A DNA stretch of 64,000 bases from a virus. Below are positions 14,210 through 43,253 of this stretch, piece after piece (position 1 is the first letter of the stretch; every line of letters starts with the position of its first letter). The stretch is from IMG/VR virus record IMGVR_UViG_3300005617_000117, positions 1 to 64,000 of that record. One strand, given 5' to 3'. The translations under genes and the position numbers were made by a program. Below the pieces are notes generated by a model. That model was not told where the DNA came from. It worked only from the letters and a program-made list of their open reading frames with translations, and did not search any database.

Positions 14210-15241
14210 ATGAAAAAGTATGATCCTGCTGCTGTTGCAGCCCTTAAGCTAACTGCCGCTCCTAATGCGTCAGAACGCGAACAAGCTCAGAAGGCTTTTG
14301 CCGCTGAACTTAACTGGCCTCTACGCCAGGGTGTTTTCGATCGTGACAACACGGGCGAAATTTATGAGCGTCAGGTTCTACAGCCCGGTGCTCAGGCCAA
14401 CTATCCTCTAGACTTCGTACGTCCTGGCGAAGAGGATAACTACATGGCGTTCACCATGCCCAAGCAGGGTAAGGTGCCTGAACGTCACGTTGAAGGCGAC
14501 GAGCTATGGGTTCCTACATTCCGAATTGCCAATTCAATCGATTGGGACATTCGGTATGCGGAAGAGGCTCGTTTCGACGTAATCATGCGAGCGATCCGGG
14601 TCTATGAAGCCGGTTTCGTCCGCAAGATCAACTCCGACGCATGGCGAACGATTCTCGCGGCGGCGGATGGTCGTGGCTTGATTGTCACTGCTAACGGCAG
14701 TGCTCCATTCACTGGCTCAAGCGTAGCTGTAACGGCTGCTGCGGGTCAGTTCACCAAGGAACTAATCAGCCGAATGAAGACGGCGATGGTTCGTGGTGCG
14801 GGTGGCAACGGCAACTCTGGTCGTCTAACTGACGTTTATCTCTCACTCGAAGCGATGGAAGACATCCGTGCGTGGGACGTAGACGAAATCGATGAGTTCA
14901 CTCGTCGTGAAATCTTCGTCAACCGTGAGTACGGACTAGCATCAATCTATGGTGTTATCCTCCACGAAATGACGGAGTTCGGTGAGGGCCAGGAATATGA
15001 AGTATTCCTATCCAGCACGCTTGGCCGTGCCCACCAGACACAGGCTTCTGCTCTATGCAAGGAGTTCTGCGTAGGACTCGATCTATCAACCAACGACTCA
15101 TTCGTAATGCCTATCCGTAAGGAACTAGAAACATACGAAGATCCTACTCTCTATCGTCAACAGAGAGCCGGAATCTACGGCTGGATGGAGCACGGTTTCG
15201 CCGTACTCGACGCTCGTAGAGTGATCCTTGGAGAGTTCTAA
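14210..15241 (+). CDS. major capsid protein (HK97 fold)
   Basis: 343 aa after the decoration gene, strong RBS aaggaga, strongly biased codons, capsid-like C-terminus GIYGWMEHGFAVLDARRVILG, terminator downstream. Confidence 0.88.
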   Translation: MKKYDPAAVAALKLTAAPNASEREQAQKAFAAELNWPLRQGVFDRDNTGEIYERQVLQPGAQANYPLDFVRPGEEDNYMAFTMPKQGKVPERHVEGDELWVPTFRIANSIDWDIRYAEEARFDVIMRAIRVYEAGFVRKINSDAWRTILAAADGRGLIVTANGSAPFTGSSVAVTAAAGQFTKELISRMKTAMVRGAGGNGNSGRLTDVYLSLEAMEDIRAWDVDEIDEFTRREIFVNREYGLASIYGVILHEMTEFGEGQEYEVFLSSTLGRAHQTQASALCKEFCVGLDLSTNDSFVMPIRKELETYEDPTLYRQQRAGIYGWMEHGFAVLDARRVILGEF

Positions 15242-15273: not shown

Positions 15274-15307
15274 TGGGGGCGGGGCATGATAGCCTCGCCC
15301 CCATTTT
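15274..15307 (+). terminator. intrinsic terminator after major capsid gene
   Basis: GC-rich stem gggggcggggc-atgata-gcctcgccccc followed by atttt. Confidence 0.85.
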
Positions 15308-15324
15308 GCTTCAGGAGTATCAAC

Positions 15325-20702: not shown

Positions 20703-20714
20703 GAGTAATTAAAA

Positions 20715-20749
20715 CCCCCGGGGGAATTTGCCCCCGGGGGATCTTTTTT
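20715..20749 (+). terminator. intrinsic terminator after tail tube gene
   Basis: cccccggggg-aatttg-cccccggggg followed by atctttttt. Confidence 0.85.
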
Positions 20750-20759
20750 GGTGTTAGGT

Positions 20760-32034: not shown

Positions 32035-32068
32035 GGCCCATACTCTATCCTGAGTGTGGGCCTTTTTT
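32035..32068 (+). terminator. intrinsic terminator
   Basis: ggcccatactc-tatcct-gagtgtgggcc followed by tttttt. A second hairpin cgtcaa-ctaa-ttgacg lies just upstream. Confidence 0.85.
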
Positions 32069-32070
32069 AT

Positions 32071-32079
32071 TAGTGTAAT
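32071..32079 (+). promoter_or_regulatory. putative late promoter TAGTGTAAT (tail-tip operon)
   Basis: Motif directly after a terminator and before the next operon. Confidence 0.7.
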
Positions 32080-40548: not shown

Positions 40549-42465
40549 ATGGTTGTAGCTTCTGGAACCATCCCATATCAGTATGAGGGAATCTATCCCT
40601 TTAGAGTGCCCGATAGTCGATCTGTCGGTTTTTCTGGTATTCTATACGAACAAACAATGACCGTCCATACAGCAGAATTATTTAGATTCTTTGGATCTGA
40701 TGACGATCCGTTCGTGTTCCAGAAGTATTTTAATATTAATGCTGCCACAGAATTATTTACGCCTCGACCTGATGGTGCCAATCTTGACGGTCGTGTGAAT
40801 GGTTTGCCCGCTGGATCATTCTTCATGAACTATATTGAAGACATGCGGCAGAGCTTCTCGCTTATGTTCTCGTTTAGCAACGTCGATTTAGCCGGGAATA
40901 TTTTAGCCTTTAAAAAGGACTGGCTTCTTTGGGTCGGAAGCATTAGCGGCACTCAAGGAGATTTTACAAGATCCTTAGAAACAATTAATTCTGGTCCAAT
41001 TCTTAGTATGGATTTTGACGACGTTGGGGCTAGTGGCGTTCTTACCGATATTGACTTAAGAGAAGTGTCTTACCAGCCGTATTCAAGATGGGGCAAAACT
41101 CTATCTGTAACTTATAACATTGCCTCGGTTAGACTCGGACCTATTTTCCCAGGCTTTATGTCTACCGCAGGACTGTTCGTTAATTTAAACTCCAGAGAAC
41201 AAGCACTTAGCTTCACGACTGGCGGGACAACTAGAACGTCGGCAGATTGGACCGCTGGACAAATGATATTAGATGGAGACATGTTCTTCTCTGATACAGA
41301 TTTTGCCCTGGCCGCAGGAACGGCAACTCGTCAAACACTAGAAGGTGATATTTCTCATAACGCCTATCCGGTACTTTCACTTCCTGGCCGTGTATTTAGA
41401 AATCACTTAAATGGCACGGTAGATCCGCGTGCTCGGGCGATCGTAGATCCCATTCCGTTAGCCATTGGTGGATATGGTATTGGAGCAATCAATAGTTTAT
41501 CTGCTCATCCTAAATTAGTTGTACCATCGGGCACTTTAAGTTTTAGTCCACAATTATCCTATAACGGCACTCATCTTGGTAGCGGATTTTATGTGTTTGA
41601 TAATAGTTTCTGGATTGACCAAGACGAAATCCTTAATCCTTCCGGCCTAAGACTACTAAATCCTTTGGCCCCACCGTCATTCGTTTGGTTTAGAATTGCA
41701 GATCAAGCTAATGCATTTGACGATCTCGGCGGCAACCACGCCTGGAGCACGCAGAACATGGTTGGTCTGATGGATAACGGCACAAACTATGTTAAAATGT
41801 CCACCATGCTTGCGACAGCAGATGCCGACAGAAAGATGGGATTCTTCTCATATGATAAATCTACTCTAGACCTTGTTTCAGTAGATCAACCGGTTCAAGA
41901 CTGGACAGTATTTACTGCAACTATCTCTGTCCCTGGAGTTTTAGCTCATGCCTCGTGGGATGGTACTTACTACTACGCCTATACCCAAAGCGGATCTGGT
42001 CCTGCTAGAAATATCTTCTTATTTGATAGCGGATTTATCCTGGCAGACTCTAAGTTTTATGGGGCACACACATTAACTTGGATTCAGGGCAATATATTTA
42101 CTGGCGGCGTTTTCGGAGCCGTTGGAGATACGGTCTATGAACTATTAATAGATCCTGATCCTGGCAATGACATTGTTACTGATACTGGCATTGCTTATAC
42201 TGTGGATGTTAGCGTTGCAGCGTGGCCAGCCAGTCATTCAAGCGTAGTAACTAAAATCTATCCGCCGAAACAAATTACTGGATCTCCTTATTTTACAGAC
42301 GGTACATGGATGATGGCTATTAATGGATCTAATGTAGTAGTTATGTTTAGAGGTGAATTATCTGGATCATCTATTGTACCACAGGAAGGGTTTGTTGTCA
42401 GTGCATTGGGTGCGGCGGTCACGGCAAGAGCCGGTTATGAGTTCGTATATGGCAACTTTACTTAG
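40549..42465 (+). CDS. putative tail/receptor-binding structural protein
   Basis: 638-aa beta-rich, SG-rich protein. The C-terminal half has propeller-like segments (SWDGTYYY). Confidence 0.55.
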   Translation: MVVASGTIPYQYEGIYPFRVPDSRSVGFSGILYEQTMTVHTAELFRFFGSDDDPFVFQKYFNINAATELFTPRPDGANLDGRVNGLPAGSFFMNYIEDMRQSFSLMFSFSNVDLAGNILAFKKDWLLWVGSISGTQGDFTRSLETINSGPILSMDFDDVGASGVLTDIDLREVSYQPYSRWGKTLSVTYNIASVRLGPIFPGFMSTAGLFVNLNSREQALSFTTGGTTRTSADWTAGQMILDGDMFFSDTDFALAAGTATRQTLEGDISHNAYPVLSLPGRVFRNHLNGTVDPRARAIVDPIPLAIGGYGIGAINSLSAHPKLVVPSGTLSFSPQLSYNGTHLGSGFYVFDNSFWIDQDEILNPSGLRLLNPLAPPSFVWFRIADQANAFDDLGGNHAWSTQNMVGLMDNGTNYVKMSTMLATADADRKMGFFSYDKSTLDLVSVDQPVQDWTVFTATISVPGVLAHASWDGTYYYAYTQSGSGPARNIFLFDSGFILADSKFYGAHTLTWIQGNIFTGGVFGAVGDTVYELLIDPDPGNDIVTDTGIAYTVDVSVAAWPASHSSVVTKIYPPKQITGSPYFTDGTWMMAINGSNVVVMFRGELSGSSIVPQEGFVVSALGAAVTARAGYEFVYGNFT

Positions 42466-42471
42466 TGTAAT
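42463..42471 (+). promoter_or_regulatory. putative late promoter TAGTGTAAT
   Basis: Motif overlapping a TAG stop, immediately upstream of a structured RNA. Confidence 0.65.
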
Positions 42472-42480
42472 TTAATTATA

Positions 42481-42581
42481 CCCGGATGCCAGACGGTATC
42501 TCGTGGGACTTGCCCCGAAGGGCCACAGGCGTTCGGACTTACCGATAGCTAAGGTTTAAAAAGCCTTGGCTATTTTTATTT
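42481..42581 (+). ncRNA. candidate structured small RNA or attenuator leader
   Basis: GC-rich non-coding stretch between promoter motif and terminator. Stem ccggatgcc/ggcgttcgg, inner gtg/cac and gccc-cgaa-gggc, possible pseudoknot cggta/taccg. Confidence 0.5.
42545..42581 (+). terminator. intrinsic terminator upstream of the 42597 gene
   Basis: atagctaaggttt-aaa-aagccttggctat followed by ttttattt. Confidence 0.7.
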
Positions 42582-42596
42582 GATGGGAGATTTTTC

Positions 42597-43253
42597 ATGG
42601 TAAGCGGAATTAGATTCGCAGGATGTTCTGGAGCGATGGGTGGACAGCCTAGCAATAGAGCGTTCCCCAACGGTCTAGAAGTATTTAATATGCAGCCTGG
42701 GGATACGTCTGCACCTCTACGTGTAGGCTTCTTCGGTGCTGGAGGGGCTCCTAACGCCTCAGTAATCGTTGGCGAATACCAAGACCGCACCCACAGAACT
42801 AATCATAACGGGGCCGATTTAGGCGTCTTTATTAATAATAAATTCTCATCTTCTACGGTAGCAATTGTTTCTGGCGTTACGTTCCCCAACTTAATCGATA
42901 TGCCAGCAAGTTCCGGTACTCTGATGTGCCGGTTTACAGAGCCAAGTGCTCAGCAAGTACAAACTCAGAACGCCACGTTCCGGGCGGTTTCATTTAACTC
43001 TAACTCAGGCGTTCCGAACATCGATGCTATTCCTGCTAACGTAACCGTACAGGCTTTCGAGCTAAAGAATACGGTTGGTGGTGCTGGCAACTCTTCATGG
43101 ACTAATATTACCAGCGGAAGCAATGCCCTTGCACTTAATGCACAGGCTGCGACCGCAACGGTTCATGACTTTATAGTTGCCGTTTCTGCTTCTCCGACCG
43201 CTACGGGAACTAATCGAGACTTCGGCTTCGCCGTAAGATTAGAATACTTCTAA
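42597..43253 (+). CDS. putative virion protein
   Basis: RBS gggaga. 218 aa, rich in Ser/Gly/Ala/Thr, six SG motifs. Last gene of the structural block. Confidence 0.65.
   Translation: MVSGIRFAGCSGAMGGQPSNRAFPNGLEVFNMQPGDTSAPLRVGFFGAGGAPNASVIVGEYQDRTHRTNHNGADLGVFINNKFSSSTVAIVSGVTFPNLIDMPASSGTLMCRFTEPSAQQVQTQNATFRAVSFNSNSGVPNIDAIPANVTVQAFELKNTVGGAGNSSWTNITSGSNALALNAQAATATVHDFIVAVSASPTATGTNRDFGFAVRLEYF

What the first reader, a model, noticed from the sequence alone, without database searches (positions are those of the whole stretch)
42463..42596. Structured RNA of about 100 nt with alternative folds between a late motif and a terminator
Fold A: 9-bp stem ccggatgcc (42482-42490) with ggcgttcgg (42528-42536) enclosing gtg/cac and gccc-cgaa-gggc, plus a possible pseudoknot cggta (42494-42498) with taccg (42540-42544) that abuts the terminator stem. 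Fold B: local hairpin gatgcc-agac-ggtatc, which excludes fold A. The sequence ggactt(g/a)cc occurs twice. The terminator ends just before the RBS of gene 42597, so this is either a standalone late small RNA or an attenuator for that gene. By eye it matches no tRNA, hammerhead, HDV-like, twister, pistol or common riboswitch consensus.
Basis: partly seen in the sequence, partly recalled or inferred. Interest (0 to 1): 0.7.

Follow-up and report, generated by a model that had tools for sequence, protein, structure and literature searches.

The report
Structured leader RNA with built-in terminator
This stretch of about 110 nt is the 5' leader of a conserved phage late gene; it keeps one copy of a hairpin motif that is conserved and covaries in 26 related phage leaders and is absent from Rfam, and here that hairpin overlaps a terminator, so a transcription attenuator is the likeliest reading.

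Summary

- **Family element.** In 26 distinct leaders of the orthologous gene (44-57% protein identity) the order is: TAGTGTA box, hairpin H1, hairpin H2, ribosome-binding site (SD), ATG. Each hairpin carries an invariant internal loop (Y-R pair, R.A, U.U, U-A pair) flanked by covarying stems.
- **Covariation.** 95% of cells are paired against 84% in shuffles, and the covariation score is 0.43 against 0.21 (0 of 500 shuffles reach it).
- **Distribution.** There is one strong copy per genome, always before this gene, and no Rfam match.
- **This window.** Only one such hairpin survives (42529-42549, GCGUU-CGG-ACUUA-CCG-AUAGC).
- **Energetics.** Before the terminator is transcribed, fold A and a three-hairpin form that contains the motif differ by only 0.9 kcal/mol.

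Best reading (0.45): a cis-regulatory leader working as an attenuator, with the conserved hairpin as a probably factor-stabilised antiterminator. The main rivals are a constitutive leaky terminator and a standalone late sRNA.

Limits: only one distinct close relative could be fetched, and there is no transcript evidence. The same scan noted this stretch a second time, from an overlapping window of this genome.

The parts
42463..42471 (+). TAGTGTAAT box. A late-promoter-like, single -10-type element that overlaps the TAG stop codon of the 638-aa gene.
   Evidence: TAGTGTAWT occurs 9 times in the window, all on the + strand, against 1.0 +/- 1.0 expected. The whole genome has 11 forward and 1 reverse copies of TAGTGTA. 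Relative G001 has 9 forward and 0 reverse. The box is invariant at the head of the family leaders. Promoter function is inferred, not shown.
42485..42500 (+). It contains the 11-mer AGACGGTATCT (42491-42501).
   Evidence: L004 keeps it as GAUGCC-AGAU-GGCGUC. Both differences preserve pairing (U-A to U-G, G-U to G-C). It sits where H1 sits in the family but lacks the H1 internal loop.
42482..42536 (+). Fold A: P1 is 42482-42490 paired with 42528-42536, enclosing the inner helices. It sequesters the 5' half (GCGUU) of the conserved hairpin.
   Evidence: This is the MFE structure. L004 uses another register (ACGCUG with CAGCGU) that also covers GCGU.
42512..42523 (+). Hairpin M: GCCC-CGAA-GGGC.
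   Evidence: Present in the window and lost in a 16-nt deletion in L004, so it is dispensable.
42529..42549 (+). Conserved motif hairpin (H2 type): G-C, C-G, G.A, U.U, U-A, then CGG/CCG with loop ACUUA. Proposed antiterminator or factor-binding site.
   Evidence: Top hit of model R2 in the window (20.9 bits, E 0.05). Aligned as the motif hairpin by R1. The core is identical to the family core, which is invariant in 26 of 26 leaders. L004 keeps GCGUU...AUAGC with a different upper stem, CGGAC/GUCUG.
42544..42582 (+). Intrinsic terminator: 14-bp stem-loop 42544-42574, then UUUUAUUU. Its first 6 nt (GAUAGC) are the 3' half of the motif hairpin.
   Evidence: Terminator scan. Fold -16.3 kcal/mol, z = -5.0. 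Conserved in L004 with a compensatory G-C to A-U change in the stem.
42585..42599 (+). Ribosome-binding site (GGGAGA) and the ATG of the 218-aa gene (42597-43253).
   Evidence: There is no other box between the terminator and the ATG, so the gene must be transcribed through the terminator (reading of the sequence).

Best explanation
The element is the 5' leader of the 218-aa late gene, not an independent gene. It is a clade-specific remodelling of a conserved leader RNA found in a family of uncultured phages of about 150-180 kb.

**Family form.** A TAGTGTA box is followed after 10-12 nt by two hairpins, H1 and H2. Each carries the same invariant internal loop (Y-R, R.A, U.U, U-A). The ribosome-binding site follows.

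**Window form.** H1 is replaced by an unrelated hairpin B (plus hairpin M). One motif hairpin is kept at 42529-42549, and an intrinsic terminator has been added.
- The 5' half of the motif hairpin can pair with an upstream segment (fold A).
- Its 3' half is the base of the terminator stem.

**Proposed mechanism (inferred).**
- When the motif hairpin forms, probably held by a factor that recognises its internal loop, the terminator loses its six basal pairs. The remaining stem is then cut off from the U-run, and RNA polymerase reads into the gene.
- When fold A forms, or the hairpin is not held, the terminator forms. A by-product RNA of about 105 nt is released.

**Shown:** orthology, conservation and covariation of the motif, the overlaps, and the near-equal energies of the two nascent folds.
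**Inferred:** promoter activity of the box, termination, the switching, and the existence of a binding factor.
For: - **Orthology.** The gene order 1095-aa, 638-aa, leader, 218-aa, 158-aa, 156-aa, RecA-like is kept in all relatives tested.
- **Family element.** The 23-leader alignment and RNAalifold give two hairpins with 2x2 internal loops; 8 of 12 pairs have changes on both sides.
- **Covariation on 26 leaders.** 95.3% of cells are paired against 83.8% in shuffles. The covariation score is 0.432 against 0.213 (0 of 500 shuffles). Slid controls give at most 0.12.
- **Invariant core.** U.U and U-A are invariant and R.A is never paired, in both hairpins, 26 of 26.
- **RNA-level structure.** G-U and U-G pairs are common in the stems, so the structure is on the sense RNA.
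- **Gene specificity.** There is one strong match (55-76 bits) per genome in five near-complete relatives; all others score 24 bits or less.
- **Window hairpin.** 42529-42549 is the best R2 match in the window. Its core is kept in L004 with a re-registered upper stem.
- **Bistability.** For the nascent RNA 42478-42549, fold A is -26.5 kcal/mol and the B+M+motif form is only 0.9 kcal/mol higher. In L004 the gap is 1.8 kcal/mol.
- **Unusual layout.** Here the order is box, leader, terminator, ribosome-binding site. At 32040-32079 in the same genome the terminator comes before the box.
- **Terminator conservation.** The terminator is conserved with a compensatory change.
- **Need for read-through.** The gene is intact and 83% identical to its relative, so it must be expressed through the terminator.
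Against: - Only one distinct close relative carries the terminator version, so neither the switch helices nor the terminator overlap can be tested by covariation.
- The upstream partner of GCGUU differs in register between the two phages.
- In the full-length RNA the terminator form is 10.6 kcal/mol more stable than the motif form. Read-through therefore needs a factor or kinetic trapping, and no factor is identified.
- No ANTAR or CAT_RBD (BglG-type) match reached its cut-off in five genomes; the RegA search found nothing but had no positive control.
- The 218-aa product is a near-neutral beta-sandwich with no sign of RNA binding.
- R2 does not recover the L004 hairpin at E <= 10.
- Most family members have no terminator, so the ancestral function of the motif is something other than antitermination.
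- One family member, L023, lacks the element altogether.
- There are no transcript data.
Confidence: 0.45

Rival explanations
1. Constitutive leaky terminator. The hairpins only protect or shape the mRNA, as 5' stabilisers for the 218-aa message and a 3' stabiliser for the tail-fibre operon. A fixed fraction of polymerases reads through. The motif hairpin is a vestige or a translational operator unrelated to termination.
For: - The genome has other intrinsic terminators inside the late region, after the genes ending at 15241 and 20702, with genes continuing downstream and no new box. Partial read-through therefore seems usual here.
- The terminator form is far more stable at equilibrium.
- No antiterminator protein family was found.
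Against: - The terminator lies after the promoter box, unlike the terminator-then-box order at 32040-32079.
- Both halves of the conserved core have alternative partners in both phages, and the nascent folds are nearly isoenergetic.
- A vestige would not be expected to keep all eight core positions.
Confidence: 0.25
2. Standalone late small RNA. Box, structured RNA of about 105 nt and terminator form a self-contained gene whose product acts in trans, for example as a decoy for the factor that binds the motif or as a base-pairing sRNA.
For: - The promoter-like box and a strong terminator bracket about 105 nt.
- The unit is conserved in L004, where an HNH gene rather than the 218-aa gene follows it.
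- The 11-mer AGRCGGTATCT is shared with a second late leader.
Against: - In 26 orthologous leaders the homologous RNA has no terminator and runs straight into the gene.
- The 218-aa gene has no other promoter.
- There is no other copy or target-like complement enriched in the genome.
Confidence: 0.12
3. Factor-independent, polymerase-modifying RNA of the HK022 put type. The promoter-proximal hairpins act in cis on RNA polymerase and make it resistant to the terminator that follows.
For: - The family has two promoter-proximal hairpins with conserved internal loops.
- In the window clade a terminator lies directly downstream.
- No protein partner was found.
- The description of put rests on my own knowledge; I did not find a paper on it in the library.
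Against: - Most family members have no nearby terminator to override.
- The element is single-copy and gene-specific rather than placed at operon heads.
- The window keeps only one of the two hairpins.
Confidence: 0.08
4. Small-molecule riboswitch. The twin internal loops form a ligand pocket, as in tandem-hairpin riboswitches.
For: - The conserved nucleotides are confined to two small internal loops in tandem hairpins just upstream of a ribosome-binding site.
- The window version has an expression platform that looks like a terminator.
Against: - The downstream gene is a structural-looking beta-sandwich protein with no metabolic link.
- There is no Rfam riboswitch match.
- The window keeps only one of the two loops.
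Confidence: 0.05
5. No function beyond the terminator. The rest is neutral intergenic sequence that happens to fold.
For: The leader without the terminator is only modestly more stable than shuffles (z = -2.1).
Against: - The motif hairpin matches a family core that is invariant in 26 leaders, and it lies at the orthologous place.
- Hairpin B changes keep pairing in L004.
Confidence: 0.05

Closest known systems
RAT-terminator attenuators read by BglG/SacY/LicT-type antiterminators
   Same: A single hairpin with internal loops partly overlaps the 5' arm of an intrinsic terminator. Holding the hairpin prevents the terminator from forming (mechanism as summarised in PMC3369931). The layout at 42529-42549 and 42544-42574 is the same.
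   Different: - There is no RAT sequence or Rfam match.
- No CAT_RBD protein is present in five genomes.
- The motif core (Y-R, R.A, U.U, U-A) is different.
- Most relatives have the hairpins without any terminator.
ANTAR targets (dual-hairpin antiterminators: EutV, NasR, AmiR)
   Same: Two tandem small hairpins carry the same conserved feature and are read as a pair. In ANTAR systems the second hairpin competes with a terminator (PMC3369931, PMC8934654).
   Different: - ANTAR recognises hexanucleotide terminal loops with A1 and G4. Here the terminal loops vary freely and the conserved part is an internal loop.
- No ANTAR domain is encoded.
- The window keeps only one hairpin.
Lambdoid PR'-tR' unit (6S RNA) overridden by Q
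   Same: A late promoter is followed within about 100-200 nt by a strong terminator, which gives a short by-product RNA unless transcription is antiterminated (my own knowledge).
   Different: - This unit controls one gene inside the late region, not the whole late operon.
- No Q-like factor or Q-binding element was looked for or found.
- The conserved RNA hairpin has no counterpart in lambda.
Translational operators in phage leaders (T4 gene 32 and regA targets, MS2/PP7 coat-protein hairpins)
   Same: They are gene-specific and single-copy, and they combine a sequence-specific loop or bulge with a covarying stem placed just upstream of the ribosome-binding site. This fits the family form of the element (my own knowledge).
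   Different: - No RegA homologue was found, although the control for that search was silent.
- The ribosome-binding site is not within the hairpins.
- The product shows no RNA-binding features.

Membership tests
Twin-hairpin leader of the 218-aa gene family (defined here, models R1 and R2) | Lies between the TAGTGTA box and the start of the orthologous gene | tested here: met
   Conserved synteny. Box at 42463 and ATG at 42597.
Twin-hairpin leader of the 218-aa gene family (defined here, models R1 and R2) | H2-type hairpin with the core Y-R, R.A, U.U, U-A, C-G | tested here: met
   42529-42549 is the top R2 hit in the window (20.9 bits, E 0.05). All core positions match the family invariants.
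Twin-hairpin leader of the 218-aa gene family (defined here, models R1 and R2) | H1 hairpin (GCRUUG...CAUAGC) 10-12 nt after the box | tested here: not met
   R1 aligns only model positions 16-98 to 42527-42599, at 17.1 bits. Nothing at 42472-42526 matches H1. Hairpin B occupies that place.
Twin-hairpin leader of the 218-aa gene family (defined here, models R1 and R2) | Leader runs into the ribosome-binding site without a terminator | tested here: not met
   A terminator lies at 42544-42582. No family leader shows one.
Intrinsic (Rho-independent) terminator | Stable stem-loop followed directly by a U-run | tested here: met
   14-bp stem, loop of 3, then TTTATTT. z = -5.0. Function was not tested.
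RAT/BglG-type antitermination | CAT_RBD (PF03123) RNA-binding protein encoded, and the RAT consensus present | tested here: not met
   No PF03123 match in G000, G001, G002, G005 or G006, while the controls matched in 4 genomes. No Rfam match. A host-encoded factor cannot be excluded.
ANTAR dual-hairpin target | Two hairpins with hexaloops carrying A1 and G4, plus an ANTAR protein | tested here: not met
   Terminal loops vary in length and sequence. There is no ANTAR match above cut-off, though the control genomes were silent, so the protein test is weak.
Any Rfam 15 family, tRNA or tmRNA | Covariance-model or ARAGORN match | tested here: not met
   0 matches at gathering score in the window. 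The only match at E <= 10 is STnc240 at 16.7 bits, over the terminator. Family leaders give none. No tRNA or tmRNA was found.
HK022 put-type polymerase-modifying RNA | Two-hairpin RNA that alone makes polymerase resistant to terminators | not testable with these tools
   This needs in vitro transcription. No put model was available to compare.

The most novel reading that the evidence does not exclude
The twin hairpins with the invariant R.A/U.U internal loop are the operator of an undescribed RNA-binding regulator, phage- or host-encoded and probably dimeric. This regulator sets the output of a tail-fibre-adjacent late protein. Within one phage family the same operator has been rewired from a plain leader element into the antiterminator of a transcription attenuator. 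That would be a natural example of one RNA-protein module being moved between levels of control.
Probability: 0.3. Interest if true: 0.65.

Novelty: new variant of a known kind. Interest (0 to 1): 0.5.

Why it matters
- **A new candidate RNA family.** The element is well supported: 26 distinct leaders, strong covariation and an invariant eight-nucleotide core. It comes from large uncultured phages, is absent from Rfam, and is tied to a single conserved gene next to the tail-fibre genes.
- **A natural comparison for function.** The window's clade shows the same hairpin built into a terminator. Comparing the two forms should show what the motif binds and whether it acts on transcription or translation.
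- **Late-gene expression in phages with no cultured relative.** The element adds to the picture of a single-box TAGTGTA promoter, leader hairpins and internal terminators. It also marks a spot where HNH homing endonuclease genes have inserted in at least two lineages, with a likely remnant in a third.

Tried and rejected
- **Known RNA families.** Rfam at gathering score and at E <= 10, on the window and on family leaders, gave nothing relevant. ARAGORN found nothing.
- **Cultured relatives.** DNA and protein searches of GenBank phages gave no match for the region or for the 218-aa protein. The terminase is at most 27% identical to Bacillus phage terminases.
- **More window-type leaders.**
  - IMG/VR by protein and by DNA pattern, and JGI metagenomes, returned only the one relative.
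  - GTDB genomes returned none of the close clade.
- **Multi-copy element or regulon.**
  - A loose YRUU-stem-AUAR scan of the genome gave 25 forward and 27 reverse hits, against about 29 in shuffles. The motif is not enriched.
  - blastn of the leader against the genome found no second copy.
- **Leader peptide.** An ATG at 42487 opens a 20-codon frame but has no ribosome-binding site. I rejected this as the basis of attenuation (reading).
- **Function of the 218-aa protein.** The AF2 model is good (pLDDT 88). Foldseek against PDB and BFVD found nothing at E <= 0.001. VIA-align gave a best Z of 5.8, to generic beta-sandwiches. Pfam, PHROGs and the ESM Atlas found nothing.
- **Partner proteins.** No ANTAR or CAT_RBD match reached its cut-off and RegA gave no hit; the controls for ANTAR and RegA were silent, so those two answers are weak.
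- **Literature.** A search for a TAGTGTA phage promoter found nothing relevant. One paper search failed on a syntax error.
Full report
**What is in the sequence.**

The window is part of a 102.8-kb phage record (about 66% complete) with essentially all genes on the + strand. The finding lies between two genes:
- a 638-aa gene (40549-42465), the last of a run of large fibre-like genes;
- a 218-aa gene (42597-43253), which is followed by two small genes, a RecA/UvsX-like gene and a DnaB-like helicase gene.

The opposite strand is unremarkable (z = -0.6). Taken apart:
- the terminator gives z = -5.0;
- the leader without it gives only z = -2.1.

Rfam gives nothing at gathering score. At E <= 10 it gives only a 16.7-bit match of an sRNA terminator model over the terminator. 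ARAGORN finds no tRNA or tmRNA.

**The 'late motif'.**

- TAGTGTAWT occurs nine times in the window, all on the + strand, against 1.0 expected.
- The whole genome has 11 forward and 1 reverse copies of TAGTGTA, mostly just upstream of gene starts.
- The closest relative has 9 forward and 0 reverse.
- The copy at 42463 overlaps the stop codon of the 638-aa gene.
- Elsewhere (32040-32079) a terminator comes directly before such a box. Here the terminator comes after the box and the leader.

That the box is a promoter is an inference. A weak sigma region-2 match in the gene at 1731-2318 (E 0.003, below the Pfam cut-off) is compatible with a phage-encoded reader of the box.

**Relatives.**

Only one distinct close relative could be fetched (83% protein identity; loci L001-L011, all the same phage). 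In it:
- the box, hairpin B, the GCGTTCGGACTT block, GATAGC and both terminator arms are conserved;
- the GCCC-CGAA-GGGC hairpin is deleted;
- the terminator stem carries a compensatory G-C to A-U change;
- an HNH endonuclease gene (Pfam HNH, E 3e-14) has been inserted between the terminator and the 218-aa gene.

A profile search of IMG/VR gave 42 loci at 33-57% identity, and GTDB genomes gave one phage-sized contig binned with a Hydrogenophaga MAG. Gene order around the leader is the same in all of them.

**The conserved element.**

In 26 distinct leaders of these relatives the layout is the same.
- **Order of parts.** TAGTGTA, 10-12 nt, hairpin H1, a 14-18-nt linker, hairpin H2 with a longer lower stem, about 15 nt, the ribosome-binding site, ATG.
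- **Shared core.** Both hairpins share one core. Reading inward it is a Y-R pair, an R opposite A that is never a standard pair, U opposite U (26 of 26), a U-A pair (26 of 26), then a G-C pair in H1 or a C-G pair in H2. A variable stem and loop follow.
- **Consensus fold.** RNAalifold predicts exactly these two hairpins with 2x2 internal loops. Eight of twelve pairs have changes on both sides.
- **Covariation.** On the model-based alignment, 95.3% of cells pair against 83.8% in shuffles. The covariation score is 0.432 against 0.213 (0 of 500 shuffles), and slid controls stay at or below 0.12. That alignment is fitted to the structure. The independent MAFFT alignment and my gap-free anchored counts agree with it.
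- **Strand.** Frequent G-U and U-G pairs place the structure on the sense RNA.
- **Copy number.** Each of five near-complete relatives has one strong match (55-76 bits), always before this gene.
- **Known families.** The leaders hit nothing in Rfam.
- **Exceptions.** One relative (L023) lacks the element. In L034, and as an apparent remnant in L018/L035, an HNH-type ORF has taken over the leader and the first codons.

**How the window fits.**

- A model of the H2 hairpin alone finds its best match in the whole window, on both strands, at 42527-42551 (20.9 bits, E 0.05; next best 14.1 bits). The full-leader model aligns the same hairpin.
- The hairpin is GCGUU-CGG-ACUUA-CCG-AUAGC (42529-42549) and carries every core position.
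- L004 keeps GCGUU and AUAGC but has a 5-bp upper stem, CGGAC/GUCUG. The short model does not recover it, probably because of the longer insert.
- H1 is missing. Its place is taken by hairpin B, whose two differences in L004 both preserve pairing.

So the window's clade has a remodelled leader: box, hairpin B, (hairpin M), one motif hairpin, terminator, ribosome-binding site.

**The competing structures.**

- The 5' half of the motif hairpin (42529-42536) is the 3' arm of fold A.
- Its 3' half (42544-42549) is the base of the terminator stem.
- For the RNA as it exists before the terminator's 3' arm is made (42478-42549), fold A is -26.5 kcal/mol. The form with hairpins B, M and the motif hairpin is only 0.9 kcal/mol higher.
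- In L004 a different upstream segment (ACGCUG) covers CAGCGU, and the two forms differ by 1.8 kcal/mol.
- In the full-length RNA the terminator form wins by 10.6 kcal/mol.
- If the motif hairpin is held, the terminator keeps only its upper eight pairs, six nucleotides away from the U-run. By the established rules for intrinsic terminators this should abolish termination.
- The 218-aa gene has no other promoter-like box. It is intact and conserved, so some read-through must occur.

**Mechanism.**

I take the element to be a cis-regulatory leader that works as an attenuator. The conserved hairpin is the antiterminator, most likely stabilised by a factor that reads its internal loop. Fold A (or its L004 equivalent) is the anti-antiterminator, and an RNA of about 105 nt is the terminated by-product.

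What remains inference: promoter activity, termination, switching and the factor.

Points against this reading:
- there are only two sequences of this type;
- the sequestering helix sits in a different register in the two;
- no ANTAR or CAT_RBD match reached its cut-off and RegA gave no hit, though two of the three controls were silent;
- the gene product is a near-neutral beta-sandwich of unknown function (pLDDT 88, best structural Z 5.8).

Because most relatives have no terminator, the motif's ancestral role must be something else, such as a translational operator or an mRNA stability or processing signal. I could not decide that.

**Comparison with known systems.**

- **RAT/BglG-type attenuators.** The layout resembles these: a hairpin with internal loops overlapping a terminator.
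- **ANTAR dual-hairpin targets.** The family form resembles these (PMC3369931, PMC8934654).
- **Why it is not a member of either.** The defining features of both were tested and not met. Conservation is in internal loops, not terminal loops. There is no RAT or Rfam match. No cognate protein domain is encoded.
- **Other analogues.** Lambda PR'-tR' and HK022 put are looser analogues, from my own knowledge.

I therefore file this as a new variant of a known kind: a structured leader and attenuator built on an undescribed RNA motif.

**Other notes from this scan.**

The same scan noted this stretch a second time from an overlapping window, along with the box and a second leader sharing the 11-mer AGRCGGTATCT. 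I confirmed the following:
- the 11-mer occurs exactly twice in the genome, both times shortly after a box;
- the 12-mer CAGACGGTATCT of the window's leader recurs in the relative's leader of the other gene.

The long-range pairing proposed for that second leader is not conserved in the relative.

Noticed in passing
L004:5045-5608; L034:1872-2500; L018:2415-2500: HNH homing-endonuclease genes have been inserted between the leader and the 218-aa gene in separate lineages. In L034 the inserted ORF starts with the same first codons (MVS) as the displaced gene. L018 and L035 carry what looks like a short remnant (MSNLDLCP...).
   Followed up: partly
window 42491-42501 and genome 87095-87105 (L062:1096-1106); L063 about 1413-1424: The 11-mer AGRCGGTATCT occurs exactly twice in the 102.8-kb genome, each time 20-30 nt after a TAGTGTA box. 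One copy is in this leader. The other is in the leader of a 162-aa gene at 87.18 kb, where it forms the 5' arm of a promoter-proximal hairpin. In relative G001 that second leader carries CAGACGGTATCT, identical to the window's copy. This suggests recombination between late leaders or a shared recognition sequence.
   Followed up: partly
window 7922, 10306, 12566, 16179, 18314, 19228, 31748, 32071, 42463: The strand-specific TAGTGTAWT box lies before late genes (9 found against 1 expected). It is conserved in relatives down to 44% protein identity, with one variant, TAGAGTA, in L012. No published promoter of this sequence was found.
   Followed up: partly
window 42597-43253: The 218-aa protein is a conserved viral beta-sandwich (AF2 pLDDT 88) with more than 120 homologues. 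It has no Pfam, PHROG or clear structural match and is always placed between a fibre-like gene with a variable C-terminus and the recombination module.
   Followed up: yes
window 40549-42465 compared with relatives: The 638-aa upstream protein shares only its N-terminal two thirds with the relatives' upstream gene. The C-terminus differs, as expected for a receptor-binding fibre.
   Followed up: partly
window 15275-15310, 20712-20750, 32040-32070: GC-rich intrinsic terminators lie inside the late region after the genes ending at 15241, 20702 and about 31999. Two of them are followed by further genes without a new box, which suggests that partial read-through is used to set gene dosage.
   Followed up: no
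L069 (NZ_JAILWB010000012.1, 157,945 bp): A phage-sized contig binned with a Hydrogenophaga MAG carries the gene and a canonical twin-hairpin leader. It is the only host hint for the family, and a weak one.
   Followed up: no
L023:2464-2503: One family member has only a 40-nt leader with the box and no hairpins, so the element is dispensable in at least one lineage.
   Followed up: no
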